A stretch of 64,000 nucleotides of DNA, taken from assembly GCA_966211585.1 (NCBI GenBank), contig CBIHNU010000013.1:36384-100383 (forward strand), read 5' to 3'. A program made the position numbers and the translations under genes. Positions within the stretch are counted from its first letter, which is position 1. Every line of letters starts with the position of its first letter. Of this stretch, positions 1 through 12,398 are shown one piece after another. The notes below the pieces were generated by a model. The model was given only the letters and a program-made list of their open reading frames with translations, searched no databases and had not been told where the DNA came from. This DNA comes from an uncultured Noviherbaspirillum sp. Its GTDB lineage: Bacteria > Pseudomonadota > Gammaproteobacteria > Burkholderiales > Burkholderiaceae_D.

Positions 1-1007
1 TCCGACTGCCGGGTCAGGAAACCCGGAATGCCCTGTACCGCGACCGACGAATCGATGCTGCTGACCTCGGTCTTGATCGACGCCATGATGTTGCCCTGGT
101 CGTCGGCCACCGGCTTGATCGACAGCCGTACGCCGTAGTCCTTGAATTCCACCGAGCCGCCGCCGAGCGATGACATTGCCGGCAGCGGAATCTGGCCACC
201 GGCCAGGAATTTTGCTTCACCGCCGCTGCGCGCGCTCAGTTCCGGTTCCGCTAGCATGTACGCGTCACCGTTGTTCTTGGCGATATTCAGCGTGGTATTG
301 ATCAGCGACGAAATGCCGAGGTAGGTGAGCAGGCCGTGGTTAGGCACCGGCAGTATGCCTTTCAGTGCGCCCTGGGTCTGCGGTTTGTCCGAACCGAGGT
401 TGCCGGCGAAGCCGACCATTGGACCGGCCACCGAGCCCGGCCATTGCAGTCCGATGTTTTCCAGGATCGATTTCTTCATCTCGATGATCTGCACTTTCAT
501 GTAGACCATCTTTTTCATCGACACTTCTTCTTCCCGCGCCAGGTTGGCCACCTGCGGATAGATCTTGGCGGCAGCCGCGATGCGCGCCAGGTTTTCCTTG
601 CTGGCGGTGCCGCTGATGATCACATTCGACCCCACTGGCGTGATCTCGATGGTGGGAATGTCCTTCAGCACCATGCTCAGATTGCGGTAGGCATCGCCGG
701 CATCACGCGGGCTGATGCGCACCGTGTAGATGGTCTTCTGGTTGTTGCCGGACCAGATCACCAGCGAGGAATCGCCGACCGCTTCGGCGATCAGCAGCAG
801 CTCCTTGTCATCGACAACCGAGGTGCTGAACAGCTTGCCGTTGCCGACCGCGATGCGTTGAACTTTATGGATCGGCAGCGACTTCACTTCGCCGACGAAC
901 ATCAGGATCTCGTTGTTCTTCGTTCCGGCCGTCGTTTCCTGCGCGTGTAGCGCGCCGGAAAACATGAGGGAACACCAGAGGCAGATTGCGAGGAGGCGTG
1001 TAAGCAT
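1..1007 (-). CDS. cpaC: Tad/Flp pilus secretin CpaC/RcpA (5' part; runs off the window, not in ORF track)
   Basis: Manual translation from ATG at 1007: MLTRLLAICLWCSLMFSGALHAQE (signal peptide)...VKSLPIHKVQRIAVGNGKLF...LAEPELSARSGGEAKFLAGGQIP...VEFKDYGVRLSIKP. These are typical CpaC N-domain and secretin motifs, and the gene lies directly downstream of cpaB. Confidence 0.9.
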   Translation of the reverse strand, partial: MLTRLLAICLWCSLMFSGALHAQETTAGTKNNEILMFVGEVKSLPIHKVQRIAVGNGKLFSTSVVDDKELLLIAEAVGDSSLVIWSGNNQKTIYTVRISPRDAGDAYRNLSMVLKDIPTIEITPVGSNVIISGTASKENLARIAAAAKIYPQVANLAREEEVSMKKMVYMKVQIIEMKKSILENIGLQWPGSVAGPMVGFAGNLGSDKPQTQGALKGILPVPNHGLLTYLGISSLINTTLNIAKNNGDAYMLAEPELSARSGGEAKFLAGGQIPLPAMSSLGGGSVEFKDYGVRLSIKPVADDQGNIMASIKTEVSSIDSSVAVQGIPGFLTRQS

Positions 1008-1021
1008 TATTTTTCTCTATC

Positions 1022-2101
1022 TCACTTAGAGGACTTGGCAGTCGCGGACTTGTTGGCGAGTTTAAGCAGGTCGTTGAAATTGCTCGGCAACGCTGCCGTC
1101 GCAGGCGCGGTCGCGGCATCGCCGGATGCGGCGGCGGGCGGCGGCATGATGCCCGATGGCGTCAGCGTCAGGCCGGCCGGCAGCGGCACATTGACGGCCG
1201 GCGTCACCGCGTCGCTGTTCCCCTTGCCGCCGATGATGTATTCGATATAGCCGGACGAAGACGACCTGTGCGGACGGGCCAGTGCCGCACGCTTGGTCCG
1301 TTCGCGTATGTCTTCCAGCATGTTTTCGGCGTTCACGGACTCGAAGTCGACTTCCTGCTTGTCGTTTTCGTTGCGCAGCACCGCGCGGATCTTGCCGAGT
1401 TCGGTTGCCAGCGCCAGTCGCGCCGCCTCGGTCGGCGTCACCTCCAGCGTGAAGTTGCTGTAGCTGATTCGCCGCTTTTCCGGTGCGACCGAGTTGGCAG
1501 GATCGTCGTGCGTGATTTTCTGGCCTGTCGCGAGCACCTTGACCTGGTCCAGGAAGGGCACCACCGTCTGGCCGTTTGATCCATCTCCGCTGCCCGGCAA
1601 CACCAGCATCAGGTCGACCAGGTTGCCCGGTTCGACCATATGCGAGACCGAGTTGATTTCGTCGACATTGACCGTCATCGCGCGCTTGCCCGGTTTCAGC
1701 GTGCCGGAGAAATCGGCGAACAGTTCACGCACGTCTTCCTTGCGCAGAGGCTTGCCTTTTTGCACCGGACGAATCAGCGCCTGGCCTTTCAGCGCATCGA
1801 ACTCATCGACCGTGATTGTGTCGTCATAAATGAAATCGGCCGGTACGTTGCGCGATGCGACCACGCTTTCGCTGAGCACGGCGCCGGGCGGCAGCGAGCG
1901 AATCGGCACCACCACGGCGACCGTGCTTCCCTTGTCCTGTTGCGATCGGGCGGTGAGTTCGGCTTCAATACTCTGTTCCTTGAACTTGAGATATTGCAGG
2001 GTCAGCCATGTGGTCAGCAAACTCAGCACGATGGCTACGATAAGCATCAACCATGTTTTGTTGATCTTTATGTTTGGGCGTTGGATTTTCAAGTTAGTCA
2101 A
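1022..2101 (-). CDS. cpaB: Flp pilus assembly protein CpaB/RcpC
   Basis: N-terminal TM segment, SAF-like region (VVVPIRSLPPG), 'GKRAMTVNVDEINSVSHMVEPGNLVDLML' and 'VKVLATGQ...TLEVTPTEAARLALA' RcpC motifs. TTG start. Confidence 0.9.
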   Translation of the reverse strand: MTNLKIQRPNIKINKTWLMLIVAIVLSLLTTWLTLQYLKFKEQSIEAELTARSQQDKGSTVAVVVPIRSLPPGAVLSESVVASRNVPADFIYDDTITVDEFDALKGQALIRPVQKGKPLRKEDVRELFADFSGTLKPGKRAMTVNVDEINSVSHMVEPGNLVDLMLVLPGSGDGSNGQTVVPFLDQVKVLATGQKITHDDPANSVAPEKRRISYSNFTLEVTPTEAARLALATELGKIRAVLRNENDKQEVDFESVNAENMLEDIRERTKRAALARPHRSSSSGYIEYIIGGKGNSDAVTPAVNVPLPAGLTLTPSGIMPPPAAASGDAATAPATAALPSNFNDLLKLANKSATAKSSK

Positions 2102-2170
2102 CCCTGCAAAAAGTAATATTGAATTTCCGCTTCTTTACCGCGCCGAAGAAGCGCTTCGGTGTTTCCTGTT

Positions 2171-2482
2171 TCAATCGAACGACACGTCGACCGGCCATTC
2201 GGGATCTTTCAGATCGAGGCATTTGTCGACCGTGACCGTGGCCGATACGCCGCCCGCGCCGGCGCTTGCGGACGTATAGCAGTTGGGCATCGACGAAATC
2301 GATATCGCATATGAATAATCGGTGTAGTAGTCGCGGATCGCCGTGGCCAGCCGTTGTATCGGCGGATTGTCTCCGGTCACCAGCACGATCACGCCAACCA
2401 TCAGCACCACCAGATACTCGATCAGCGACTGGCCGCGCATGCGGCGCGCGCGTAGCGGTCGCGAGAAGAGGCGTCTGCTCAT
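2171..2482 (-). CDS. Flp/TadE-type minor pilin-like protein (103 aa)
   Basis: Class III prepilin motif RG|QSLIEY followed by a hydrophobic helix. ATG at 2482 overlaps the upstream stop (ATGA). One Cys pair in the C-terminal part. Confidence 0.75.
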   Translation of the reverse strand: MSRRLFSRPLRARRMRGQSLIEYLVVLMVGVIVLVTGDNPPIQRLATAIRDYYTDYSYAISISSMPNCYTSASAGAGGVSATVTVDKCLDLKDPEWPVDVSFD

Positions 2483-3201
2483 GGCTTGTCCACCAGATTG
2501 GCGAGCACGGCGGTGTGGCTGCCGTTGCGTGTGATGACCAGGCTCGCTTCGGCCAGCCCGCGCTTCATGATCAGCGTGATGCCGGGGCCGGACTTGGTCG
2601 TTATCTGATAGCTGCTGATCGCCCGCCATCCCTGGTCGGCCAGCGTCTGGCGATAAAAATCGGCATTCGATTCGGCTGAAAAGGTATTGGTCAGCAGCAG
2701 CGTGCGCGCGTTTTTTCCATCGTCGCGGTGTTCAATGTCGTTAATGACGGTGCTGCCCGACATCATCGGCAGCGCCTTATCGGAATCGATCACGCGCGGC
2801 TGGTCCGGCGCCTGCGTCGCGCTCAGCAAACCGGTGGAACCGCTTCTGCCGGCTGCCTGGACCTGCACGGTGAAAAAGCATTTGCCGCGCGCCGAGGCGA
2901 TGGTTTGCCACGGATCGACCGTATATTCGAGAGGTGCTGAACCGAGGGGGCCGCCTTTCCACGCCTGCCGGTAAAACGCGAGAATCTGCTCCGGCTTCTG
3001 GTCGCTGTCGAAGCGCTTGATGCTCATCGGTATGCCGTTGTAGACCATGTACGGCGCTACCCATTGCAAGGACGTGGTTTTCGGTTCAGGAAATGCGGGG
3101 CAGTCGAGTTCTTTCGCCATCAATCCGGTCGACAGCAGGCCGCAGCAGGCCATTGCGGCCCAGCGCGTGCGGTTTCTGAAGTTTGCCGAATGGTTGTTCA
3201 T
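2479..3201 (-). CDS. Secreted hypothetical protein in tad cluster (240 aa)
   Basis: Start MNNHSANF at 3201, Sec-type signal, two internal FYRQ-containing repeats, tightly coupled to neighbours. Confidence 0.7.
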   Translation of the reverse strand: MNNHSANFRNRTRWAAMACCGLLSTGLMAKELDCPAFPEPKTTSLQWVAPYMVYNGIPMSIKRFDSDQKPEQILAFYRQAWKGGPLGSAPLEYTVDPWQTIASARGKCFFTVQVQAAGRSGSTGLLSATQAPDQPRVIDSDKALPMMSGSTVINDIEHRDDGKNARTLLLTNTFSAESNADFYRQTLADQGWRAISSYQITTKSGPGITLIMKRGLAEASLVITRNGSHTAVLANLVDKP

Positions 3202-3209
3202 CGCGCTGC

Positions 3210-4052
3210 TTATTTGAGGCGATCGGCCGGAACATTTTCCGGTTCGATCTTGCCGAGTTCGAGCTTCGATACTTCCGGCAGGAATACCGACACGGCGGCC
3301 TGCAGGTATTCCATGACCGGTACGCCGCCGATTGTCGCGGCAAAGATGGAGAAGGGCACCAGGCCTTTGGTTTGCTGCTTGACGCTGGTCTTGCTGGCGT
3401 CGTCGGGGCCGTCCGCACTCCATCCGTTGGCGAGCAGCACATTGGTTTCGCTGAAGCCGGAGGTCGAGTTCTTCAGCAGGAAATGGTCGTAGTCGATGTC
3501 CTTCACCTTGATGGTGACGGTCGCCGCATACTCGCCGTTCATCTCCAGCGTGAACGGGCCGAGTGTCGAAGCGAAATTCGCGATCGGATCGAGTATCAGG
3601 TTCAAGGTGCCGGGAGCCTGGTTATTGGCCACCGTGTTCTGGACGTCGCTGTAATTGGCCAGCAGTTGCTTGCCGCTGCGGTCTTGCCAGAGCGCTTTCG
3701 ATCCGCCGCTGAAACTGTTCGCACTGCGGTCCGTGCTCGAAAACTGCGTGTTCGCCCCGGTCTCGGAAAGCTGGCGTACACCAATCTCGCGGCGAATCTG
3801 GTCGTCGGTTTTCTCGTTGGCCTGCCATCTGCGGCTCACGCCGAACCAGCCGAGGCTGGAAGCGGCGTCGCCGCCGTACCAGACCGTGCGTTCCCACGCC
3901 GCATAACGCGCGGTCTGTACCGCGCTGGCGCGCACATCCAGGTACTTTCCGAGCAACGGAATCGCGAGAAACAGCGGTACCAGCACGAGCGCAGCCACGA
4001 TCACCAGTTCGACCATGGCTTGTCCGCGCGCTCTGGAAGGTATGGTTACCAT
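3210..4052 (-). CDS. tadE: TadE-like pseudopilin (280 aa)
   Basis: RG|QAMVEL prepilin motif, hydrophobic helix, 'AVQTARYAAWER' TadE-type motif. Start overlaps the upstream stop. Confidence 0.75.
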   Translation of the reverse strand: MVTIPSRARGQAMVELVIVAALVLVPLFLAIPLLGKYLDVRASAVQTARYAAWERTVWYGGDAASSLGWFGVSRRWQANEKTDDQIRREIGVRQLSETGANTQFSSTDRSANSFSGGSKALWQDRSGKQLLANYSDVQNTVANNQAPGTLNLILDPIANFASTLGPFTLEMNGEYAATVTIKVKDIDYDHFLLKNSTSGFSETNVLLANGWSADGPDDASKTSVKQQTKGLVPFSIFAATIGGVPVMEYLQAAVSVFLPEVSKLELGKIEPENVPADRLK

Positions 4053-5638
4053 AGGTGATAGGTCAGGGAAGCGTACTGTTCGAGGAAATTGTTCGGCGCC
4101 AGCCGGGCTTGCCAATACGGGCTGTACAGGCTGCCGAGTTCGGTCTTGCCATCGCCGCGCGCCCACAGTTTCGGCGGACGCGAAAAATAGATCTGCGCCT
4201 TGGTCAGGCTGCGCATGAAGCCGCTCTGCGTGCCGTTGGTCAGCGCGAACTGGCCGCCCGACATGCTGTTGCTGCTCGGGATCTTGTTATCCGCCTTTTC
4301 TATTTCAAGTATCAGTGGCGGACCGAGCAGGTTGTCCTTGTCGGTTTTCTTAACGTCGAAGTAGCTGCGCAGGCCGGCACGGGAATCGAGCGTCGCGCCT
4401 GCGCCGGCGGCCTTTTGCCGCAGCGCCGCCAAAGCGGTATCGGCGCGCTCGTACACGCCGCCATACGCATCGTCGGCTTCGGTGCCGAAATTGTTGTCCG
4501 GGTTCAGATTGCTGCTCGGGCCGGCCTGTGCGGCGCCCCAGCCCATCGGGATCAGCGGCACCGGGATCGGAATCGGGATCGGAATGCCGAGAATGCTGAT
4601 CCAGAAAATCGCATAGCCGGAAAAGCCGGTCGCGTCCATCGCACTCCAGGTCTTTTTGGAGCCGTTGATGTTCTTCAGTTCGGTTCCGCCACGATGCCAC
4701 AGATACATCAGGAAGGCGCCGTTCTGATAGGGAATGAAGCGGGTAGGGTCGACCACGAACGGGGTCAGGTACATCATTTCCGGGAAGTTCTTCGCCGGTC
4801 CGCCGTTCTTGGTGCTGCGGTCGCGCGAGAACTCGTCGAGCGAATCGATCGTGACCTGGGCCATGCGGTCCCCGTTGGCACCGTCCAGATTGGTCGCATT
4901 CGGGTTCTTCTTATTGGTGAACAGGAACCATTGCGCCAGATGAACGATGGCCGCCGCTGTGCCCGGCGTGCTCAGGTCGGCGTTCGTGTCGTTGAGCTTG
5001 ATGACGTTGTAGGCATCGTTGAAGGTCAGCAGGTCCTTCACCACGCCGAGCGAAGACTCATCGACGCCGGCCAGCTTGTCGAGCACCTTGGCCGGGGACA
5101 GGCCGATGGTCTGCGCGACGGTCAACGCGGTGCCGTAGTGGTAAATGGTTTGCGCAACGCTGAGGACGTCGATCAGCCCATCCAGCAGCTTTGTCGTGAC
5201 CGGTCCGATGGTGTCGAACGCCGATTTGAATACATTGGATACGCTTTTCGATGCGTTCCACGGCACGTCCCAAAATATTTTCGCAAGTGGTCCGCCGAGC
5301 GATGTCAGCACCTTCGGCACCCAGGAAAGCGGGCCGCGGTAGGTGGCGGAATAGTTGCGCGACCAGGACGTCAGTCCGACCACCTGCGCCACCGCTACCT
5401 GGTTGGCGATGATCGCGCGATTGGTATACGCGGCGAAGTTGTAGTCCCGCGCTTCCGCGAGCACCGCGCTATAGGCGGCAGCGTCAGCGGTATTCTGCAG
5501 CCGCATCTTGTTGATCGACTGCTGGCCCATGGTGTACATCGTCACCATCACCAGAATGATGATGGATACCGTGATGAGGGAAAAAACCAGCGCCTGACCT
5601 TGCTGGCTTTTACATCGGGAGATGGCAGTCAAGGTCAT
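4046..5638 (-). CDS. tadG: TadG-like large pseudopilin / putative tip adhesin (530 aa)
   Basis: QG|QALVF prepilin motif without E+5, 'LQNTADAAAYSA' Tad-domain motif, C-terminal YWQARL. Confidence 0.75.
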   Translation of the reverse strand: MTLTAISRCKSQQGQALVFSLITVSIIILVMVTMYTMGQQSINKMRLQNTADAAAYSAVLAEARDYNFAAYTNRAIIANQVAVAQVVGLTSWSRNYSATYRGPLSWVPKVLTSLGGPLAKIFWDVPWNASKSVSNVFKSAFDTIGPVTTKLLDGLIDVLSVAQTIYHYGTALTVAQTIGLSPAKVLDKLAGVDESSLGVVKDLLTFNDAYNVIKLNDTNADLSTPGTAAAIVHLAQWFLFTNKKNPNATNLDGANGDRMAQVTIDSLDEFSRDRSTKNGGPAKNFPEMMYLTPFVVDPTRFIPYQNGAFLMYLWHRGGTELKNINGSKKTWSAMDATGFSGYAIFWISILGIPIPIPIPVPLIPMGWGAAQAGPSSNLNPDNNFGTEADDAYGGVYERADTALAALRQKAAGAGATLDSRAGLRSYFDVKKTDKDNLLGPPLILEIEKADNKIPSSNSMSGGQFALTNGTQSGFMRSLTKAQIYFSRPPKLWARGDGKTELGSLYSPYWQARLAPNNFLEQYASLTYHLW

Positions 5639-5692
5639 CCGCCTGTTTGAATAATGTAGTACGGACGTACATTTCGGCGAAATCGAAGCCGG

Positions 5693-5737
5693 TTTTTCCG
5701 CGTATGGCAGGGATCATCCCTGCCATACCGGAAGAAA
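5693..5737 (-). terminator. Long stem-loop downstream of the pilin gene (terminator/attenuator or mRNA-stabilising hairpin)
   Basis: Perfect 12-bp stem GTATGGCAGGGA (5702-5713)/TCCCTGCCATAC (5717-5728), extended by TTCCG/CGGAA. No clear U-tract on the minus strand. Confidence 0.6.
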
Positions 5738-5745
5738 CGCGGTTC

Positions 5746-6045
5746 TTATTTGCTGGCAGCGTTGCCAGCGTCGTAGTTGGCCATACCCTTGCCCGAGGCT
5801 GCCTTGGATGCGGCGGCAGAGGCGGCGCTGGCGGCGGTTGCCTTGCCGGCTGCGGCACCGGTACCGGCGACTTCACCGGCGAGGCCGGCTACCTGGCCGC
5901 GAATGGTCTGGCCGAACATGCTGTACACGCCGATTGCCGCGACGGCGATCAACGCGACGATGATGATGTATTCGGTCATGCCTTGACCACGCTCGGCTTG
6001 GGGCGATTTCAGTGTCAGATTTTTGATACGTGTCGCGATTTGCAT
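5746..6045 (-). CDS. flp: Flp-family type IVb major pilin-like protein with Ala-rich extension (99 aa)
   Basis: RG|QGMTEYIIIVALIAVAAIGV matches the Flp motif (E+5, Y+6). First gene of the cluster, with RBS GAGGGG. Confidence 0.85.
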   Translation of the reverse strand: MQIATRIKNLTLKSPQAERGQGMTEYIIIVALIAVAAIGVYSMFGQTIRGQVAGLAGEVAGTGAAAGKATAASAASAAASKAASGKGMANYDAGNAASK

Positions 6046-6085
6046 GATGGTCCCCTCTTATAAAAGTCGATATTTATTGTCTCCG

Positions 6086-6110
6086 GACATCTGTGTGCAA
6101 AACAGATGTC
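6086..6110. promoter_or_regulatory. Perfect inverted repeat in the AT-rich flp/Sel1 divergent region (candidate operator)
   Basis: GACATCTGT-N7-ACAGATGTC, about 40 bp upstream of the pilin start. Confidence 0.45.
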
Positions 6111-6318
6111 ATCCGCGAAACGATACCATATGATATCTTCCCTGTAGGCATTTTTGCGTTCAAGAAAGTGTTTTCCGTACGACAAAAATACAACGTTGCG
6201 CGACGGAAATTACGATAACTTACAGGTCTTCGTAAAAGCAGATTACAGCGGGTGCTGAATGGTGCTGCCAGTCAATTTGACCTCGCTACTTCTTCGTTAT
6301 ATGGGCAAGGGGAAACAT

Positions 6319-7227
6319 ATGGTGAACCGATTTTTCAGGGAATGTGCGGTGGTGGCGGGACTGCTGGGCATCGTCTTGCCGGCGCACGCCGACTATCAAT
6401 CGGCGCGCGCGGCATACGAACACGGCGACTATGCCGTGGCCCTGAAAGAGTTTTCGGATGCCGCTTCGCAAGGCAACGTGGAGGCCGAAAACAACCTCGG
6501 CATCATGTATGAAAAAGGCCAGGGCGTGCCGGTGAATTACGCGCGGGCGATGGCCTGGTATCGCAAGGCGGCCGACCAGAATTTCGCCCCGGCGCAAACA
6601 TCGGTCGGTTATCTCCATGCCCATGGATTCGGCGTGCCGCGCGATTACGCGCAGGCGATGGCCTGGTATCGCAAGGCGGCCGACCAGAATTTTGCCCAGG
6701 CGCAGAACAATATCGGTGCGATGTACGAGATGGGGCATGGCGTTGCCGCCGATCCGGTACAGGCAGCAGAGTGGTATCGGAAAGCCGCCGATCAAGGGCT
6801 GGCATTGGGACAGGCCAATCTCGGCTTTCTGCATGCGCGAGGCAAAGGCGTCGCCAAAGACGATGCGAAGGCGGTCGAACTCTACGTCAAGGCGGCAGCG
6901 CAGAATCTGCCGCTGGCGCAAAACAATCTCGGCTACATGTACGCGCAGGGACGCGGGGTGCAAGAGGATTACGCGGCGGCGGCTTCGTGGTATCGCAAGG
7001 CAGCGGCGCAAGGATTCGGTCTCGCCGGATTCAATCTGGCCCGTCTATACGAGCAAGGCAAGGGCGTGCCGCAAGATAATGCCCAAGCCCTTTCGTGGCT
7101 GACGCAATCGGCAAACGCCGGCTACAAACCGGCGATGCGGCGCCTTGCGGATGTTTATACGCGCGGCTTGCTGGGGCAAAAGCCGTCTCCGGAAACCGCG
7201 AACCACTGGGCCGACAAGGCACGCTGA
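6319..7227 (+). CDS. Secreted Sel1-like repeat protein (7 SLRs, 302 aa)
   Basis: Signal peptide ending AHA|D and seven about 36-aa repeats of the type AQNNLG.MY..G.GV..D...A..WYRKAA.Q. RBS AAGGGG upstream of ATG 6319. Confidence 0.9.
   Translation: MVNRFFRECAVVAGLLGIVLPAHADYQSARAAYEHGDYAVALKEFSDAASQGNVEAENNLGIMYEKGQGVPVNYARAMAWYRKAADQNFAPAQTSVGYLHAHGFGVPRDYAQAMAWYRKAADQNFAQAQNNIGAMYEMGHGVAADPVQAAEWYRKAADQGLALGQANLGFLHARGKGVAKDDAKAVELYVKAAAQNLPLAQNNLGYMYAQGRGVQEDYAAAASWYRKAAAQGFGLAGFNLARLYEQGKGVPQDNAQALSWLTQSANAGYKPAMRRLADVYTRGLLGQKPSPETANHWADKAR
6546..6692 (+). repeat. 39-bp identical direct repeat within the Sel1 gene
   Basis: GGCGATGGCCTGGTATCGCAAGGCGGCCGACCAGAATTT at 6546-6584 and 6654-6692, 108 bp apart (one SLR). 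Confidence 0.85.
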
Positions 7228-7289
7228 GCAATCGCAATAGCAAATACAAATAACAATAACGAGAAGTGCACAAGAGGGAGGGGGAGTAC

Positions 7290-9176
7290 ATGTCGGCATC
7301 AATGCTTGCCATGGTCGGGACGGACGAAACAAAAAGCGTTCGCGAGTTGCTGGCCGATCCGATTTTCGAGAAAGCGTCCTATCTGGGGTTGGCCCGTCTG
7401 CTCCCGTACACATCCGAAAGAGTATTTCAGACAGGCGAATATCTGTACCGCGCCGGTCAGCAGGCTGACGAATTTCTCTATCTGCTGGAAGGCAAGGTCA
7501 AGCTGGTTTCGCAGAAGCAGCAGGAGATCGCTCTTGACAGTCGCCGGCTAGGGCAGGAGGCGGCCACCGATTTCGATCATTACCTTGCGGATGCCATCGC
7601 GCTCTCTCCGGTTCGGGTTCTGGTCATTTCACGAAAACACCTCGCATCGCTGTTTGAAACCCGCCCCGGCCTGCGTGCAAAGTTCTACTTTTCCCTGATG
7701 CAGACCTTTACAGGCGACCATCTGCATCCGCCGGAACGTCCCGCGAAAGAGGTTCTGCCCTTGCCGAATGCCGGCAAGGAGCCGGAACGGATTGCAACGC
7801 TGGTCGGCTGGCTGCTCACCTTCATCGCGCCGGCGCTGATTCTTTATTTCGGCCACGGCTGGGGGCTGGAAAACGATGCGCGCTATTTTCTCGCGATCTT
7901 TTCGTCGACCATCGTAATGTGGGTTTTCACGCTGGTCGATGAATACATTCCCGGAATTTTTGCGTTGCTGGCGACGCTGGCAATGGGACTGGTGCCGACG
8001 CCAGTCATCCTGTCAGGCCTCGCGTCAGACGGTTTCATGCTGGCGATGAGCGTACTCGGGCTTGCGGCCGTCATCGTCTCGTCCGGCCTCAGTTACCGGC
8101 TGCTGCTGGTGTTGCTGATGCGGCTGCCGAACACCGCGTTCTGGCAGAACAGCGCGCTGGTCGGACTCGGTTTCCTGCTGACCCCGTTGATCCCGTCGAT
8201 CAATGGCCGGGTCGCACTGGTGACGCCGTTCCTGTCCGACATGCTGGAGATACTGCATCATAAATCCAGGGGGCCTGCCGCCAACCAGCTTGCGGTGTCC
8301 GCATTTGCCGGTGTCAGCCTGTTGTCGGGCGCCTTCCTCAGCAGCAAGTCGGTCAATTTCGTGATTTTCGGTTTGCTGCCTGACCAGATACAGGATCAGT
8401 TCCAGTGGCTGAACTGGCTGGCCGCTTCCGCCGCCACGGCTCTGGTGCTGCTGGTTCTGTACATCGTGATGGCCATGGCGCTACCCGGCGGCCGCGAGCC
8501 GTCGAAGCTGTCGAAAGAGCAGTTGCAGATCCAGCTGTCGTTACTCGGCAAGTTGAAGCATCGGGAATGGGCCGCGATATGCGGCGTGGTCCTGTTCATG
8601 CTCGGCGTCGTCACTACCTCGCTGCACAAGGTGTCGTCCCCCTGGCTGGGCATGGCGATCCTGTTCGGCATGTTGCTGTTCGGCGCGTTGAACAAGAACG
8701 AATTCAGGGAAAAGATCGATTGGCCGTTCCTGATCTACCTCGGCGGCATCGTTGGCATCACCAGCGCCATCAATTACCTCGGCATCGGGCAACTGATTGC
8801 TTCGCACCTACCTTGGCTGGGCGAATACATGCACACCAATTTCAGCCTGTTCGTGCTGTTGCTGAGCGGTGTGATCTTCATCGTTCGCCTCGCCGTGCCG
8901 ATCACCGCCACCATCGTCATCATGGCGACCATCCTGATGCCGGTTGCGGTGCACTACGGCGTCAATCCATGGGTAGTCGGTTTCATCATCCTGATCATCG
9001 GGGAAATGTGGTTTTTTCCGTATCAGTGCTCGTACTACCTGCAGTTCCGGCAATTGACCAAGGGCCGGGTCTACGATGAAAACCTGTTCCTGAAATTCAA
9101 TGCCTTTTCCAATCTCATGAAGCTCGCGGCGATTTACGCATCGATGCCTTACTGGAAGTCGCTGGGGCTGCTATGA
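7290..9176 (+). CDS. Cyclic-nucleotide-binding domain fused to SLC13/DASS-family anion transporter
   Basis: N-terminal CNB-like fold (VFQTGEYLYRAG...FLYLLEGKVKL...VRVLVISR), Pro-rich linker, then many hydrophobic segments resembling DASS/CitT (EKIDWPFLIYLGG; EMWFFPYQ). RBS GGGAG. Confidence 0.8.
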   Translation: MSASMLAMVGTDETKSVRELLADPIFEKASYLGLARLLPYTSERVFQTGEYLYRAGQQADEFLYLLEGKVKLVSQKQQEIALDSRRLGQEAATDFDHYLADAIALSPVRVLVISRKHLASLFETRPGLRAKFYFSLMQTFTGDHLHPPERPAKEVLPLPNAGKEPERIATLVGWLLTFIAPALILYFGHGWGLENDARYFLAIFSSTIVMWVFTLVDEYIPGIFALLATLAMGLVPTPVILSGLASDGFMLAMSVLGLAAVIVSSGLSYRLLLVLLMRLPNTAFWQNSALVGLGFLLTPLIPSINGRVALVTPFLSDMLEILHHKSRGPAANQLAVSAFAGVSLLSGAFLSSKSVNFVIFGLLPDQIQDQFQWLNWLAASAATALVLLVLYIVMAMALPGGREPSKLSKEQLQIQLSLLGKLKHREWAAICGVVLFMLGVVTTSLHKVSSPWLGMAILFGMLLFGALNKNEFREKIDWPFLIYLGGIVGITSAINYLGIGQLIASHLPWLGEYMHTNFSLFVLLLSGVIFIVRLAVPITATIVIMATILMPVAVHYGVNPWVVGFIILIIGEMWFFPYQCSYYLQFRQLTKGRVYDENLFLKFNAFSNLMKLAAIYASMPYWKSLGLL

Positions 9177-10207
9177 AAAAACTCCGGTTGGCGATGATCG
9201 TCGTTTTTCTGGTTGCGTTGGCGGCGACCGTGGTGGTGTTCAATACCACCAAGCCGCGGCTGTTGATCCTACAGAGTTACGACCGCGACTATGCGTGGAC
9301 TCGGGATGTCGATGTCGGCATCAATCGCGTGCTCAAGGACCGAAATGACTATTCGGTGCGCTGGTTTTACATGGATACCAAGAGCCATCCTTGGCACGAC
9401 TACAAGGTCAACGTCGGGAAAACGGTCAAAAAGCTGATCGAGAACTGGCAGCCAAACGTCGTCATTGCAGTCGATGACGATGCGCAGAAATATGCAATGG
9501 AATCGTTCATCAATCGCCCGGACATCAAGATCATCTTCTCCGGCATGAATGGCTCCCTGGCCGACTACGGTTACGACAAGGCGAACAATGTGACAGGCAT
9601 CCTGGAGCGCAAACCTTTTAAGGCGGTGAAGGAAACGCTGCTGCTGATCGCCTCTTCGCAAAACCGCACGCGTCCTGTGCGCATCATGTTTCTTGGCGAT
9701 GCGTCCGAGTCTGTGCATAACGATGAACAGGAATTCAGAAAATTCGACTGGGGGCCGATCCAGGTGCTCGATTCGCGGTTTGCAAAGACCTTCGACGATT
9801 GGCGTTCCGCCATCGAGTTTTGCAATAACAATAATGTGGATTTCATCATTACCGCGAATTACCGGAAAATCCTCAGGGAAAAGGGCGTCAAGGGCCTGAT
9901 GCCGGTGCAGGAAATTCTCCAGTGGACCGATCAGAATTCACGCGTGCCGCTCATCGGGACGAATGCCTTTTTTGTCGAGGACGGCGGCTCGCTGGCGATC
10001 GGTACCTCGCCTTACGAACAGGGCGAAGTCGCGCTGTCGATGGCAAACGACATTTTGTACAAGGGAAAAAAGACGAGCGATATTCCGGTGCAGTCCACCA
10101 GGCAGTTCGTGGTCGCCATGCGCGCGTCGGGGATCAAGAAATGGAATATCAAGCTGCCGACGGTCTATGAATCCGCGGCGCGCTCGTCGGCCAACTTCTA
10201 TCCGTGA
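9173..10207 (+). CDS. Membrane-anchored ABC-type solute-binding protein (ABC_sub_bind-like)
   Basis: N-terminal hydrophobic anchor, 'LILQSYDRDYAWT', 'PNVVIAVDDDA', 'NVTGILE', 'GEVALSMANDILYKGKKTSDIPV'. ATGA overlap with the upstream gene. Confidence 0.8.
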   Translation: MKKLRLAMIVVFLVALAATVVVFNTTKPRLLILQSYDRDYAWTRDVDVGINRVLKDRNDYSVRWFYMDTKSHPWHDYKVNVGKTVKKLIENWQPNVVIAVDDDAQKYAMESFINRPDIKIIFSGMNGSLADYGYDKANNVTGILERKPFKAVKETLLLIASSQNRTRPVRIMFLGDASESVHNDEQEFRKFDWGPIQVLDSRFAKTFDDWRSAIEFCNNNNVDFIITANYRKILREKGVKGLMPVQEILQWTDQNSRVPLIGTNAFFVEDGGSLAIGTSPYEQGEVALSMANDILYKGKKTSDIPVQSTRQFVVAMRASGIKKWNIKLPTVYESAARSSANFYP

Positions 10208-10315
10208 AGACGCATATTGCTTGCGCGTGCTCGATCATATTTGCCGGGAGCCGCGCATATCGGCGTACGTGTTGCGATAGAGGAGCAATCGCCAACCCGG
10301 GAGGGACATTACAAA

Positions 10316-12217
10316 ATGAACTCTGCTAGCACACGCAAGTTGCCGCTGCACCCAAGAAGCTGGCCGATTGCGATCAAGCTCGCCGTCGCGCTGGCGCTCG
10401 CATCCTTGCTGCCGATGCTGATCGTGTCGTACCACAATCTGCAGCAAAGCATAGAAGTCACTGCGGAACGCGAATCCGAGGAACTGGAGCAATTGGCATC
10501 CAGTACAGGCGCGCGAATCGATCAATTGATCAAGGACACCGGGCACACCATCTCCTACTTCAGCTGGAGCGAGGAAGTGGTCCGTCTCGCCGCCGCACCC
10601 GACAAGAGCAGCCGCGAGCGGGTGGAAGACAAGATGGCGCGCCTGATGACAGCCAATGAAGACATCGAGCTGTTCATGGTGCTCGATGGCGGCGGCAAGG
10701 TGATCGCATCGAGCAAAGCGCAGTATGTCGGCCGCAAGCTGAATTTTCGGGATTATTTCAAGGAGGCGAGCAGGGGACGGGATTTCATCTCGGATCTCGA
10801 AGTCGGCACGGCCAGCCACAATCCCGGAATGTATTTTTCGGCGCCGGTACGCACTGCGACCGGCCGTGTATCCGGTGTGGCGGTGCTGAAGCTGAAAGGT
10901 GATGCGATCCGGATCATCATGGAGGAGGCGCGCAACCGCGAAGCCCGGCTGATGACCTTTCTGGTCGATAAGGACGGCATCATCATTTATCACCCCGAGC
11001 GAAAAGTTCTCTATCACAGCCTTGCACCGTTGCCGGCCGAGCTGCAGAAAAAATTGATCGACGAGAAGCGCTTTGGCGTTGATGTCGATGTGATTCACAG
11101 TTTCAATCTGCAGGATCTTGCAGGCAAGATGATCAATGCCAGGCAGCCGGACCACGCACGCTACCTGTCCCCGATCAGCAAGGTGCCGGAAATCGTCGGC
11201 TTCGCACCCACGCTGCGAAAGAACTGGCAAGTAGCGGTTGCCGAAACCGAGGATGCCTATGCCAGGCCGCTGCAGCAGTTGTTCCGCAATGCCGTCACCA
11301 GCGTCGCGCTGATCGGGCTGATCTTTGTCGGCCTCGCCTTCCTGTTCGCGCGCACGTTCACTCGTCCGTTGAAGGCGCTCACCGATTCCGCCGGCGCCAT
11401 CGAAAGAGGCGATCTGGAGCAGGCACATGTCGCTGTCTCGACGGAGGACGAGCTGGGACGCTTTACGCATACCTTCAATTCCATGATCGACGGCATCAAG
11501 GCAAGACAGCGGGAACGCGACATTTTCGGACGCATGGTTTCGCCGCAGGTAAGAGAAAAACTGCTGACCGGCGAATTGAAACTGGGCGGCGAAAACTTGC
11601 GGGTTTCGGTGCTGTTTTCCGATATCCGCGGTTTCAGCACGATGTCGGAAAAAATGAGCCCGCATGACGTCGTGATGCTGCTGAACGAATATCTGAAGGA
11701 AATGACCGAGGCGGTGCAGCCGTGGGGCGGTTACGTCAACAATTTCATCGGCGATGCGATCGTCGTGATTTTCGGCGCGCCGGAAGCGCGCGCCGAATGC
11801 GAGTTCTCCGCGATACGGGCCGCGCAGGCAATGAAAGTCCGTCTCGACGTACTGAATCGGCGGCGTGCCGAGCTGGGCGACCCGCCGATCATCACCGGCA
11901 TCGGCATCAGTACCGGCAAGGTGGTGGCAGGGCAAATCGGATCGCTGGAACGCTTCATGTATACGGTGATCGGCGATGCCGTCAATGTCGCCGCCCGCCT
12001 CGAAGGGTTGACCAAGGAATTCGACGGCAACCCGATCCTGGTGAATTCGGCAACCTATGAGGGCTGCCGCCAAAAGCAAATCGAAATCCAGTTCATCGAT
12101 CAGGGCTTGCAAAGGGTGAAGGGCAGGGAAGAACCGGTCCACGTGTATGGCGTGTATCCGGATGACAGCGCGGGCACGGATACCGCGCCACCGGCAGAGC
12201 AATCGCTGGTACGGTAG
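10316..12217 (+). CDS. Class III nucleotidyl (adenylate/guanylate) cyclase with periplasmic Cache domain and HAMP
   Basis: TM-Cache (FRDYFKEA, GMYFSAPV)-TM-HAMP (DELGRFTHTFNSM)-cyclase. Motifs FSDIRGFS, NNFIGDA, GIGISTG, YTVIGDAVNVAARLE, VKGREEPV. Confidence 0.9.
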   Translation: MNSASTRKLPLHPRSWPIAIKLAVALALASLLPMLIVSYHNLQQSIEVTAERESEELEQLASSTGARIDQLIKDTGHTISYFSWSEEVVRLAAAPDKSSRERVEDKMARLMTANEDIELFMVLDGGGKVIASSKAQYVGRKLNFRDYFKEASRGRDFISDLEVGTASHNPGMYFSAPVRTATGRVSGVAVLKLKGDAIRIIMEEARNREARLMTFLVDKDGIIIYHPERKVLYHSLAPLPAELQKKLIDEKRFGVDVDVIHSFNLQDLAGKMINARQPDHARYLSPISKVPEIVGFAPTLRKNWQVAVAETEDAYARPLQQLFRNAVTSVALIGLIFVGLAFLFARTFTRPLKALTDSAGAIERGDLEQAHVAVSTEDELGRFTHTFNSMIDGIKARQRERDIFGRMVSPQVREKLLTGELKLGGENLRVSVLFSDIRGFSTMSEKMSPHDVVMLLNEYLKEMTEAVQPWGGYVNNFIGDAIVVIFGAPEARAECEFSAIRAAQAMKVRLDVLNRRRAELGDPPIITGIGISTGKVVAGQIGSLERFMYTVIGDAVNVAARLEGLTKEFDGNPILVNSATYEGCRQKQIEIQFIDQGLQRVKGREEPVHVYGVYPDDSAGTDTAPPAEQSLVR

Positions 12218-12398
12218 TCGCTCCCTCTTTTTACGAATTCCCGGCAACGCCGGCCAGGAGTCGTGCTCGCGTCCGCAGCGCGCCCGCATGATTCGCGAAG
12301 GCAGCACCGAAATGCCGTCAGCCGGCGGCGATTTGCGCCTCGAACGCTGAGCGGCGGTTAAATCCTTTAAAATAGCGGCCTATCTTAGGATTCAAATC

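What the first reader, a model, noticed from the sequence alone, without database searches (positions are those of the whole stretch)
6319..12217. Candidate undescribed cyclic-nucleotide signalling module: Sel1 + cNMP-domain/SLC13 fusion + solute-binding protein + Cache-HAMP cyclase
Seen: four co-oriented genes (62-bp gap, an ATGA overlap, then about 108 bp) encode a secreted Sel1 protein, a CNB domain fused to a DASS-like membrane protein, an anchored SBP with no ABC permease/ATPase nearby, and a periplasmic-sensing class III cyclase. Established: class III cyclases make cNMPs, CNB domains gate transporters and channels, and SBPs and Sel1 proteins (e.g. ExoR) can modulate membrane sensors. 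Inference: this is a self-contained circuit in which the SBP hands a ligand to the Cache domain, the cyclase makes a cNMP, and the cNMP gates the SLC13 protein. I know of no characterised system with this arrangement.
Basis: partly seen in the sequence, partly recalled or inferred. Interest (0 to 1): 0.82.

Follow-up and report, generated by a model that had tools for sequence, protein, structure and literature searches.

The report
Binding-protein-coupled DASS permease with accessory cyclase
The four genes are real, but the unit conserved across bacteria is an anion-carrier-type permease with a nucleotide-sensor-like domain plus its own membrane-tethered binding protein, probably an undescribed kind of binding-protein-dependent transporter; the cyclase is an optional add-on and the Sel1 gene belongs with the neighbouring pilus genes.

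Summary
Observation confirmed. Four co-oriented genes lie at 6319-12217 with the stated gaps (62 bp, ATGA overlap, 108 bp) and the stated domains.

Interpretation partly supported.
- The CNB-like/DASS permease gene is followed at once by the anchored PF04392 binding-protein gene in all 26 evaluable related loci. The same holds in remote pairs whose permease has no CNB domain.
- The two genes co-occur in 8 of 8 genomes of the genus and in none of the 17 others. No ABC genes lie nearby.
- So the binding protein's partner is the permease, not the cyclase's Cache domain. [quoted passage not shown]
- The dCache-HAMP cyclase ortholog is adjacent in only about 30% of loci, upstream or downstream and sometimes overlapping. 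It never occurs without the pair. That supports a real but accessory link.
- Direct cNMP gating is uncertain (about 50%). The CNB phosphate cassette has Tyr-Leu where Arg-Ser/Thr is expected. The cyclase has Asn at the base-specifying Lys/Glu position.
- Sel1 tracks the divergent Flp/Tad pilus locus. It lies on the opposite strand in Rhodocyclaceae loci and is absent from two cyclase-bearing loci.

No paper describing this pairing was found.

The parts
6319..7227 (+). Secreted Sel1-repeat protein (302 aa; alternative start 6259). It is co-oriented with the module here, but its conserved partner is the divergent Flp/Tad pilus locus.
   Evidence: Pfam Sel1, 6 repeats, E 4e-64. NCBIfam ExoR, MotX and AlgK matches are far below their cut-offs. 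The gene is divergent from the flp gene in every locus that has it. It lies on the opposite strand to the module in L026, L029 and L030, and is absent from L031 and L034.
7290..9176 (+). CNB-like domain fused to a DASS/SLC13-fold permease (628 aa). This is core gene 1 of the conserved pair.
   Evidence: Pfam cNMP_binding, Na_sulph_symp and CitMHS. AF2 model pLDDT 81.7. Foldseek TM 0.79-0.80 to AtDiT2.1, NaCT and VcINDY. At least 242 clusters of homologs, none characterised.
7419..7661 (+). CNB-like beta-roll domain (cytoplasmic, N-terminal).
   Evidence: Pfam PF00027, 44 bits against a cut-off of 27.5. The family profile hits PKG/PKA CNB domains at E 1e-12. The single sequence best hits the DNR sensor domain.
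7551..7595 (+). Non-canonical phosphate-binding-cassette equivalent, G88-Q-E-A-A-T-D-F-D-H-Y98-L-A-D-A102. Tyr-Leu stand where Arg-Ser/Thr are expected.
   Evidence: Alignment to 7pza (FGEMALLDGQPRSADATA) and to DNR (..PNYVATA). The family-wide motif is G-E-E-A..Y-L-x-D-A in both cyclase-linked and cyclase-less loci. G88 and E90 are invariant, and Y98 and A102 are at least 90% conserved.
7803..9173 (+). DASS/IT-superfamily elevator-type membrane domain. The predicted hairpin tips read PSINGR and VPITAT, with no SNT motifs.
   Evidence: Pfam Na_sulph_symp at residues 180-576 of the 636-aa form. TIGR00785 scores 85.5, below its cut-off of 198.6. Secondary structure of the model. Motif search.
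9173..10207 (+). Membrane-tethered type I periplasmic binding protein of the PF04392 clade (344 aa). This is core gene 2; its start overlaps the permease stop (ATGA).
   Evidence: Pfam ABC_sub_bind E 9e-10. AF2 pLDDT 93.5, with a TM helix at residues 2-25 and then the binding-protein fold. Foldseek best hits are 3lkv, 3lft (L-Trp) and 6hnj. It lies directly downstream of the permease gene in 26 of 26 evaluable loci. Invariant polar and aromatic residues sit at the C-terminal ends of strands in both lobes.
10316..12217 (+). dCache_1-HAMP-class III nucleotidyl cyclase (633 aa; alternative TTG start at 10217). This is the accessory gene of the module.
   Evidence: Pfam dCache_1, HAMP and Guanylate_cyc. 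Full-length orthologs occur only in genomes that hold the pair, and are always adjacent. They lie downstream in seven loci and upstream in four.
11741..11743 (+). Asn codon at the base-specifying Lys (AC) or Glu (GC) position of the cyclase (YVNNFIGD).
   Evidence: Aligned to IDKFMGD in 6fht and IDEFMGD in the Cya2 guanylyl cyclase 2w01. Asn is conserved in all 10 module-linked orthologs, whereas a non-module paralog has Lys.
5746..6045 (-). Context: Flp-type pilin gene, first gene of the divergent Tad/Flp pilus cluster (TadG-like 4046-5638, RcpC/CpaB 1022-2101, secretin 3-1007).
   Evidence: Pfam Flp_Fap (weak), Tad, RcpC and Secretin. The Sel1 and TadG orthologs are present in the genus only in G000, G002 and G004.

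Best explanation
The conserved functional unit is a translationally coupled two-gene pair.
- One gene encodes a DASS/SLC13-fold, elevator-type permease with an N-terminal cytoplasmic CNB-like domain.
- The other encodes a type I periplasmic binding protein of the PF04392 clade, held on the membrane by an uncleaved N-terminal helix.

I propose that the tethered binding protein captures a periplasmic solute of unknown identity and delivers it to the permease. That would make the pair a binding-protein-dependent secondary transporter of a class not yet described, working like TRAP, TTT and TAXI-GltS.

The CNB-like domain is a cytoplasmic regulatory module added in one subclade of these pairs.

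In this genome's lineage, and in a few others, a dCache_1-HAMP-class III cyclase has been recruited to the operon. It most likely senses a periplasmic ligand through its own Cache domain and makes a cyclic nucleotide that acts on the CNB-like domain to tune transport.

Sel1 is not a module component. It belongs to the neighbourhood of the divergent Flp/Tad pilus locus, although here it may be co-transcribed with the module.

Shown: the gene anatomy, the folds, the conserved adjacency and phyletic co-occurrence, and the residue patterns.
Inferred: ligand hand-over, transport, cNMP binding, and the direction of regulation.
For: Permease-SBP pair:
- The SBP gene lies immediately downstream on the same strand, often overlapping, in 26 of 26 evaluable loci. 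Identity to the window permease ranges from 29% to 82%.
- The same holds in 8 of 8 evaluable copies from an order-wide sample, and in the isolates Sulfuritalea hydrogenivorans and Denitratisoma oestradiolicum.
- Within the genus the two genes co-occur in 8 genomes and are both absent from 17.
- Remote SBP relatives (27-34% identity) still follow a DASS-like gene. In L044 and L045 that gene has no CNB domain, so the pairing is older than the CNB fusion.
- There are no ABC genes nearby.
- The permease has the DASS elevator fold.
- The SBP has a PF04392-type binding-protein fold, a TM anchor about 6 residues before the first strand, and invariant cleft-lining residues.

Precedent and open question:
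- TAXI-GltS was proposed as a new SBP-dependent secondary transporter on the same kind of evidence. That paper states that only TRAP and TTT were known before it and asks for further classes (PMC12344293).

Cyclase link:
- Orthologous cyclases (56-75% identity, all with the Asn variant) are adjacent in 11 loci, in two gene orders. In L026 and L030 the called ORFs overlap by 4 bp.
- The cyclase-bearing loci are spread over at least 3 clades of the permease tree.
- Within the genus the cyclase ortholog never occurs without the pair.
- The cyclase keeps both metal-binding Asp residues and the transition-state Asn and Arg.
Against: - There is no experimental evidence of any kind.
- No SBP-DASS fusion protein (a Rosetta stone) was found among the 150 best SBP relatives.
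- A complex could not be modelled with the tools available.
- The closest solved folds to the permease include Na+-independent exchangers (plastid DiT1 and DiT2.1). SBP coupling to an exchanger would be unusual.
- Tandem double-SBP relatives pair with HAMP-PAS histidine kinases, so this SBP clade can also serve signalling partners.
- The CNB cassette lacks the Arg and Ser/Thr that bind the cyclic phosphate, and it resembles DNR (Y-V-A-T-A) at that site.
- About 70% of pairs have no dedicated cyclase, yet they keep the same cassette.
Confidence: 0.55

Rival explanations
1. The anchored SBP presents a ligand to the cyclase's Cache domain, the cyclase makes a cNMP, the cNMP gates the SLC13-type protein, and Sel1 modulates the sensor. 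All four genes form one self-contained module.
For: - The four genes are co-oriented, with short gaps and no terminator-like sites between them.
- SBP-like proteins can partner with membrane sensors. Tandem PF04392 proteins sit just upstream of HAMP-PAS kinases. XylFII-LytS appears among the fold matches.
- In the genus, Sel1, the cyclase and the pair co-occur in G000, G002 and G004.
Against: - The SBP is invariably next to the permease, and usually there is no cyclase ortholog in the locus or the genome.
- The SBP also pairs with CNB-less DASS genes.
- The cyclase has its own dCache_1 ligand-binding domain.
- When the cyclase lies upstream, it is separated from the SBP gene by the permease gene.
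- Sel1 is on the opposite strand in L026, L029 and L030 and is absent from L031 and L034.
Confidence: 0.1
2. The pair is a transporter unit, but the CNB-like domain does not bind a cyclic nucleotide. It is an FNR/DNR-like or KCNH-like sensor of another cytoplasmic ligand (a metabolite, or an intrinsic ligand). The cyclase is linked only through shared regulation or a shared substrate cue: for example, its Cache domain senses the same solute and its cNMP acts on a CRP-type regulator.
For: - The cassette has Tyr-Leu in place of Arg-Ser/Thr throughout the family. The same Y-[LV]-A-x-A is seen in the DNR sensor domain, which is the best single-sequence PDB hit and the best Foldseek hit for this part.
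- The cassette is equally conserved in the roughly 70% of loci that lack the cyclase.
- A distant CNB-DASS protein (L018) keeps the canonical PRSAS, which shows that this family's change is derived.
Against: - The orthologous cyclase is adjacent in at least 3 clades and two gene orders, sometimes with overlapping ORFs, and never occurs without the pair.
- The family profile is closer to PKG/PKA CNB domains (E 1e-12) than to CRP/FNR regulators (E 1e-7).
- Gly-Glu of the cassette is kept in most members.
- These genomes carry many other class III cyclases that could supply cNMP.
Confidence: 0.3
3. The tethered SBP-like protein is not a substrate donor. It is a regulatory or structural subunit, or the ligand-sensing half of a non-transporting receptor ('transceptor') built on a DASS scaffold.
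For: - The very short tether (about 6 residues) and the invariant pairing fit a permanent subunit.
- The hairpin tips lack the SNT motifs of characterised DASS carriers, and TIGR00785 is below its cut-off.
- Relatives of the SBP pair with kinases.
Against: - The only cytoplasmic domain is CNB-like, which is an input module with no known output activity. CNB-less pairs have no cytoplasmic domain at all.
- The membrane domain keeps a full DASS elevator fold with many invariant polar residues.
- Residues lining the SBP cleft are invariant, as in true ligand binders.
Confidence: 0.12

Closest known systems
TAXI-GltS of Bordetella pertussis (BP0403/BP0402; Jaques et al. 2025, PMC12344293)
   Same: A binding-protein gene is translationally coupled to the gene of an elevator-type secondary carrier that normally works alone. 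No TRAP or ABC membrane genes are present. The case was proposed from genome context plus modelling.
   Different: Here the SBP is a type I PF04392 protein, a family otherwise known from ABC importers, and not a TAXI protein. The carrier is DASS-fold, not GltS/ESS. The SBP is tethered by a TM helix. No fusion proteins were found. The carrier bears a CNB-like domain, and some loci add a cyclase.
TRAP transporters (DctP or TAXI SBP + DctQM; e.g. HiSiaPQM) and TTT (TctABC)
   Same: These are SBP-dependent secondary transporters. The TRAP M subunit shares the DASS elevator fold (PMC12344293). The window permease gives weak Pfam DctM and Foldseek SiaQM matches.
   Different: There is no Q-like subunit. 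The SBP is of an unrelated family. The membrane protein is nearer to true DASS carriers than to DctM. A cytoplasmic regulatory domain is present.
DASS/SLC13 carriers with solved structures (VcINDY, LaINDY, NaCT, NaDC3, NaS1, plastid DiT1/DiT2.1)
   Same: The overall fold is the same (TM 0.79-0.80) and Pfam PF00939 is matched.
   Different: Identity is only 14-19% and TIGR00785 is below its cut-off. There are no SNT hairpin motifs. An N-terminal CNB-like domain is present. An obligatorily linked binding-protein gene is present.
Class III cyclase with an adjacent CNB-domain effector gene (Xanthomonas campestris XC_0250 cGMP cyclase + XC_0249 CNB-GGDEF; PMC3770947)
   Same: A class III cyclase gene lies next to the gene of a protein that carries a CNB domain as the presumed direct receptor (abstract).
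   Different: The effector here is a transporter, not a diguanylate cyclase. The CNB cassette and the cyclase specificity residue are both non-canonical. The cyclase is membrane-bound, with a Cache-HAMP input.
PF04392 (ABC_sub_bind) binding proteins with structures: TrpX 3lft, VC 3lkv, CD0873 6hni/6hnj
   Same: These are the best fold matches (E 1e-11 to 1e-13), and the Pfam family hit is shared.
   Different: Identity is 14-16%. The known members bind aromatic amino acids and serve ABC importers (PMC10443332). This one has no ABC partner and is tethered by a TM helix.

Membership tests
DASS / SLC13 (Pfam PF00939, TCDB 2.A.47) | Pfam Na_sulph_symp above the gathering score | tested here: met
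   86 bits against a cut-off of 27.
DASS / SLC13 (Pfam PF00939, TCDB 2.A.47) | NCBIfam TIGR00785 (dass subfamily) above its curated cut-off | tested here: not met
   85.5 bits against a cut-off of 198.6.
DASS / SLC13 (Pfam PF00939, TCDB 2.A.47) | Two-domain elevator fold with two re-entrant hairpins | tested here: met
   AF2 model compared with AtDiT2.1 (TMt 0.80), NaCT (0.79) and VcINDY (0.79).
DASS / SLC13 (Pfam PF00939, TCDB 2.A.47) | Ser-Asn-Thr motifs at both hairpin tips (known from VcINDY; recalled from my own knowledge) | tested here: inconclusive
   The protein has no SNT tripeptide. The predicted tips read PSINGR and VPITAT. The tips were assigned from the model's secondary structure, not from a residue-level structural alignment.
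Cyclic-nucleotide-binding domain (PF00027) | Pfam cNMP_binding above the gathering score | tested here: met
   44 bits against a cut-off of 27.5. The family profile hits PKG/PKA CNB domains at E 1e-12.
Cyclic-nucleotide-binding domain (PF00027) | Phosphate-binding cassette Arg and the following Ser/Thr, which hold the cyclic phosphate | tested here: not met
   Tyr98-Leu99 align with Arg-Ser of 7pza. Tyr holds this position in 23 of 25 aligned family members and in at least 90% of 50 homologs.
Cyclic-nucleotide-binding domain (PF00027) | Cassette Gly-Glu | tested here: inconclusive
   Gly88 is invariant. The next residue is Glu in most members but Gln in the window. The residue after that, Glu90, is invariant.
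Cyclic-nucleotide-binding domain (PF00027) | Binds cAMP, cGMP or another cNMP | not testable with these tools
   This needs ITC or DSF on the purified domain.
Class III nucleotidyl cyclase (PF00211) | Catalytic domain with two metal-binding Asp residues and the transition-state Asn and Arg | tested here: met
   FSDIRGF, IGDA and AVNVAARLE are conserved in all orthologs and align to Cya2 and bPAC.
Class III nucleotidyl cyclase (PF00211) | Base-specifying Lys (adenylyl) or Glu (guanylyl) | tested here: not met
   Asn (YVNNFIGD) aligns with K of 6fht and E of 2w01. Asn is conserved in all 10 module cyclases. The product is therefore not predictable from sequence.
Binding-protein-dependent secondary transporters (as a kind: TRAP, TTT, TAXI-GltS) | SBP gene conserved next to, and translationally coupled with, a secondary-carrier gene, with no ABC components | tested here: met
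   26 of 26 evaluable loci, with further remote pairs. ATGA overlap in the window. No ABC genes within about 10 kb.
Binding-protein-dependent secondary transporters (as a kind: TRAP, TTT, TAXI-GltS) | Membrane component of the elevator type | tested here: met
   DASS fold.
Binding-protein-dependent secondary transporters (as a kind: TRAP, TTT, TAXI-GltS) | Transport depends on the SBP; SBP and carrier interact physically | not testable with these tools
   No multimer modelling or assay was available. No SBP-carrier fusion was found among the 150 best SBP relatives.
TRAP transporter (TCDB 2.A.56) | DctP- or TAXI-type SBP plus DctQ and DctM membrane parts | tested here: not met
   The SBP is PF04392. 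The DctM hit is marginal (24 bits against 23.8) and overlaps stronger DASS hits. There is no Q gene.
PF04392 ABC-type substrate-binding protein | Family HMM above the cut-off, and a type I binding-protein fold | tested here: met
   38.7 bits against 25.9, although only the C-terminal third of the model is matched. The best Foldseek hits are the PF04392 structures.
PF04392 ABC-type substrate-binding protein | Cognate ABC permease and ATPase genes | tested here: not met
   There are none in the window neighbourhood. Only two other weak PF04392 matches exist in the whole genome.
ExoR-type Sel1 regulator | NCBIfam ExoR equivalog above its cut-off | tested here: not met
   48 bits against a cut-off of 450. 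This is a generic Sel1-repeat protein.

The most novel reading that the evidence does not exclude
[quoted passage not shown] In this lineage the transporter is gated by a matched non-canonical signalling pair. One partner is an Asn-variant class III cyclase that makes a nucleotide other than, or in addition to, cAMP and cGMP. The other is a Tyr-for-Arg CNB cassette tuned to that product. A periplasmic cue sensed by the Cache domain would then switch a nutrient carrier directly.
Probability: 0.15. Interest if true: 0.85.

Novelty: new variant of a known kind. Interest (0 to 1): 0.66.

Why it matters
Until 2025 only TRAP and TTT carriers were known to use binding proteins without ATP. The paper that added TAXI-GltS asks whether further classes exist and whether all of them are elevator-type carriers (PMC12344293).

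A conserved pairing of a DASS-fold elevator with a binding-protein family known only from ABC importers would be a further class. It would directly support the elevator rule.

The pair would also be an example of a bacterial secondary carrier with a built-in second-messenger-type sensor and, in some genomes, its own dedicated cyclase. That offers a compact system for studying post-translational control of nutrient uptake.

Cultured carriers of the pair make it testable: Sulfuritalea hydrogenivorans sk43H and Denitratisoma oestradiolicum.

Tried and rejected
- Replacement signalling enzyme. In loci without the cyclase I looked for another signalling enzyme. The neighbours are unrelated: NRPS, caspase-WD40, acetyl-CoA synthetase, Band7, ABC ATPase, TAXI-like SBP.
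- SBP-DASS fusion. I looked for a fusion protein among the 150 best hits of an SBP profile in 1.8 billion representatives. None was found. The long hits are tandem double SBPs or SBP plus a RodZ_C domain.
- Shared Cache sensor with swapped output. I tested whether the dCache-HAMP chemoreceptor next to the pair in L050 shares the cyclase's Cache domain. It has no similarity.
- Tad-cyclase correlation. I tested whether cyclase presence tracks adjacency to Tad pilus genes. This partly collapsed: the 'c5' cluster in L027 and L034 is a TPR-secretin beside a TAXI-like gene, not a Tad locus. Only two lineages show Tad adjacency.
- SBP against PDB sequences. The single sequence found nothing, and the profile found only 3lkv at E 0.004. 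The fold search was needed.
- Canonical-cassette relative. L018 has no adjacent cyclase or PF04392 gene, so it says nothing about the cyclase link.
- Greedy longest-ORF gene calling picked antisense ORFs in this high-GC DNA. I replaced it with GC3-GC2 weighting.
- Literature searches for CNB + SLC13, for PF04392 or COG2984 + DASS, and for cNMP-domain transporters found no description of this arrangement.

Full report
**1. Observation**

- Sel1: 6319-7227.
- CNB-like/DASS permease: 7290-9176.
- Binding protein (SBP): 9173-10207.
- Cyclase: 10316-12217.

The starts at 7290 and 10316 follow strong purine-rich ribosome-binding sites. The gaps are 62 bp, a 4-bp ATGA overlap, and 108 bp.

Pfam confirms every domain call:
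- Six Sel1 repeats (E 4e-64).
- cNMP_binding, plus Na_sulph_symp and CitMHS.
- ABC_sub_bind (PF04392).
- dCache_1, HAMP and Guanylate_cyc.

No terminator-like site lies in the gaps. No ABC transporter gene lies within about 10 kb. Upstream, on the other strand, is a Flp/Tad pilus cluster: Flp pilin, a TadG-like protein, RcpC/CpaB and a secretin. Downstream is ribBA.

A 690-aa antisense ORF over the cyclase gene is a high-GC artefact.

**2. What is conserved**

I collected related loci in two ways: 23 from one genome per GTDB species, and wider regions from relatives in the same genus. I mapped the four proteins onto them by tblastn. I then called and clustered all neighbouring genes.

*The permease-SBP pair.*
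- The SBP gene lies directly downstream of the permease gene, on the same strand and often overlapping it, in all 26 loci where the flank can be read. Permease identity to the window runs from 82% down to 29%.
- In an order-wide sample of 401 genomes only 9, the window's own genome included, hold the family. All 8 evaluable copies in the other 8 genomes have the SBP adjacent.
- In the genus, permease and SBP co-occur in 8 genomes and are both absent from 17.

*The pairing is older than the CNB fusion.*
- A profile of the SBP found 529 representatives at E <= 1e-30.
- I sampled the genomic context of members that are only 27-34% identical to the window SBP.
- Six of the seven single-domain SBPs sampled sit within 10 bp of, or overlapping, a DASS-like gene. 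The seventh (L046) lies on a 1.8-kb contig where the point cannot be judged.
- In two of those six (L044, L045) the DASS protein has no CNB domain at all.
- The cultured Sulfuritalea hydrogenivorans sk43H and Denitratisoma oestradiolicum carry the pair as well.

**3. The cyclase**

- A full-length ortholog (56-75% identical) is adjacent on the same strand in 11 loci. It lies downstream of the SBP gene in the Oxalobacteraceae-type loci and upstream of the permease gene in the Rhodocyclaceae/Sterolibacteriaceae-type loci. In L026 and L030 the called ORFs overlap by 4 bp.
- In roughly 70% of loci it is absent, and no other signalling enzyme takes its place.
- In the genus the ortholog is present only in G000, G002, G004 and G020, always next to the pair. 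The other four pair-bearing genomes have only paralogous cyclase-domain matches.
- In the order sample, 1 of 8 pair-bearing genomes has it.
- On a maximum-likelihood tree of the permeases, the cyclase-bearing loci fall in at least three separated clades and need 3-4 gains or losses.

The cyclase therefore depends on the pair, but the pair does not depend on the cyclase. Adjacency kept through rearrangement, and across deep splits in the tree, argues for a real functional link.

**4. Sel1**

- Wherever a Sel1 ortholog is present it lies divergently next to the flp pilin and TadG-like genes.
- In L026, L029 and L030 it is on the opposite strand to the module and convergent with it.
- The cyclase-bearing loci L031 and L034 have no Sel1 gene.
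- In the genus, the Sel1 and TadG orthologs occur only in G000, G002 and G004. There the pilus locus, Sel1 and the module travel together as one accessory block.

I conclude that Sel1 belongs to the pilus neighbourhood. In the window it may still be co-transcribed with the module.

**5. Proteins**

*SBP.*
- The AF2 model is confident (pLDDT 93.5). A transmembrane helix at residues 2-25 runs almost directly into a type I binding-protein fold.
- The best structural matches are the three solved PF04392 proteins, at 14-16% identity. Those proteins bind aromatic amino acids (PMC10443332).
- The hydrophobic anchor is present in all orthologs and in the remote relatives.
- The invariant residues include S35, Y36, Y40, W42, R63, W64, K70, D101, D102, Q105, N139, E145, D176, S178, Y230, R231, S279, E282 and Q283. 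They sit at the C-terminal ends of the strands in both lobes, where type I binding proteins hold their ligand. That placement is an inference from topology. It points to one conserved ligand, whose identity is unknown.

*Permease.*
- The model (pLDDT 81.7) has the DASS elevator fold. TM-scores are 0.79-0.80 to plastid DiT2.1, NaCT and VcINDY. TRAP SiaQM matches more weakly.
- It is a divergent member. TIGR00785 is below its cut-off. The predicted hairpin tips read PSINGR and VPITAT rather than SNT.

**6. The nucleotide question**

*The CNB-like domain.*
- It passes the Pfam threshold.
- Its phosphate-binding cassette reads G-[E/Q]-E-A-A-T-D-x-x-x-Y-L-A-D-A. Tyr-Leu align with the Arg-Ser/Thr that hold the cyclic phosphate in canonical domains.
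- The change is family-wide and is the same with or without a linked cyclase. These are the most conserved positions of the domain.
- The DNR sensor domain, which is not a cNMP binder (my own knowledge), has the same Y-V-A-T-A. It is the best single-sequence and fold match for this part.
- The family profile, however, is closer to PKG/PKA domains.

*The cyclase.*
- It keeps both metal-binding Asp residues and the transition-state Asn and Arg.
- It has Asn where adenylyl cyclases have Lys and the Cya2 guanylyl cyclase has Glu.
- The Asn is conserved in all module-linked orthologs. A neighbouring paralog has Lys.
- From my own knowledge, mycobacterial cyclases with non-canonical residues at this position are still active. 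The enzyme is probably active, but its product cannot be read from the sequence.

I put direct nucleotide control of the permease at about 50%.

**7. Comparison with what is known**

- Jaques et al. 2025 proposed TAXI-GltS as a new SBP-dependent secondary transporter from genetic linkage, translational coupling, fusions and modelling.
- They state that only TRAP and TTT were known before, and that elevator mechanics may be the common requirement (PMC12344293).
- The pair here fits that theme with a different carrier (DASS) and a different SBP family (PF04392).
- Literature searches found no description of it.
- A cyclase next to a CNB-effector gene has a precedent in Xanthomonas XC_0250/XC_0249 (PMC3770947).
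- Notes from other agents of this scan reached the same 'binding-protein-coupled DASS' reading in other genomes. I treat those notes as leads, not as evidence.

**8. Verdict**

- Best explanation (confidence 0.55): a binding-protein-dependent DASS-type transporter with a CNB-like regulatory domain. This lineage has an accessory Cache-HAMP cyclase that probably feeds that domain. Sel1 belongs to the adjacent pilus locus.
- Main weaknesses: there are no experiments, no fusion protein was found, no complex model could be made, the cassette is non-canonical, and transcript data were unavailable.

Noticed in passing
window 3-6045 (- strand) and 6319-7227: A Flp/Tad pilus cluster lies divergent from the Sel1 gene: secretin, RcpC/CpaB, two unassigned ORFs, a TadG-like protein and the Flp pilin. 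In the genus, this TadG ortholog, the Sel1 ortholog and the cyclase ortholog occur only in the same genomes (G000, G002, G004). Pilus locus, Sel1 and the module therefore behave as one accessory block.
   Followed up: partly
window 6086-6110: A perfect inverted repeat, GACATCTGT-GTGCAAA-ACAGATGTC, lies in the 273-bp flp-sel1 divergent intergenic region. It is visible in the sequence and could be an operator. Its conservation in relatives was not checked.
   Followed up: no
L042:5001-9311 and L052:231-4212: Tandem double PF04392 binding proteins of about 650 aa, close relatives of the window SBP (E 1e-63 to 1e-76 against its profile), sit 19 bp upstream of HAMP-PAS histidine kinases. The same SBP clade therefore seems to serve signalling partners too.
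   Followed up: partly
L024, L032, L053 (AP012547.1), L055 (LR778301.1): A large caspase-domain (Peptidase_C14) protein, with WD40 or FGE-sulfatase domains, is encoded next to the permease-SBP pair in four cyclase-less loci. Two of these are cultured isolates.
   Followed up: no
L014:5547-6902, L027:4168-5142, L034:285-1382: TAXI-like (NMT1_3) binding-protein genes lie just upstream of the pair in three loci. In L027 and L034 a TPR-secretin gene accompanies them.
   Followed up: no
L017 (G003:C61) 1706-6639: Two tandem, strongly diverged CNB-DASS paralogs (29-33% identical to the window protein) are followed by a single SBP gene.
   Followed up: no
permease tree: Genomes of a single genus carry permease-SBP pairs from four different clades of the family tree (G000/G004; G024/G008; G001; G003). 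The pair therefore looks like a horizontally exchanged accessory unit. Only about 2% of genomes in the order have it.
   Followed up: partly
L050 (CP049885.1) 2133-7238: In a complete genome the pair is followed by a dCache_1-HAMP-MCP chemoreceptor gene. Its Cache domain is unrelated to that of the window cyclase.
   Followed up: yes
window 10235-12307 (- strand): A 690-aa antisense ORF is longer than the true cyclase ORF. It has the codon-position GC pattern of a non-coding frame. It is a trap for longest-ORF gene calling.
   Followed up: yes
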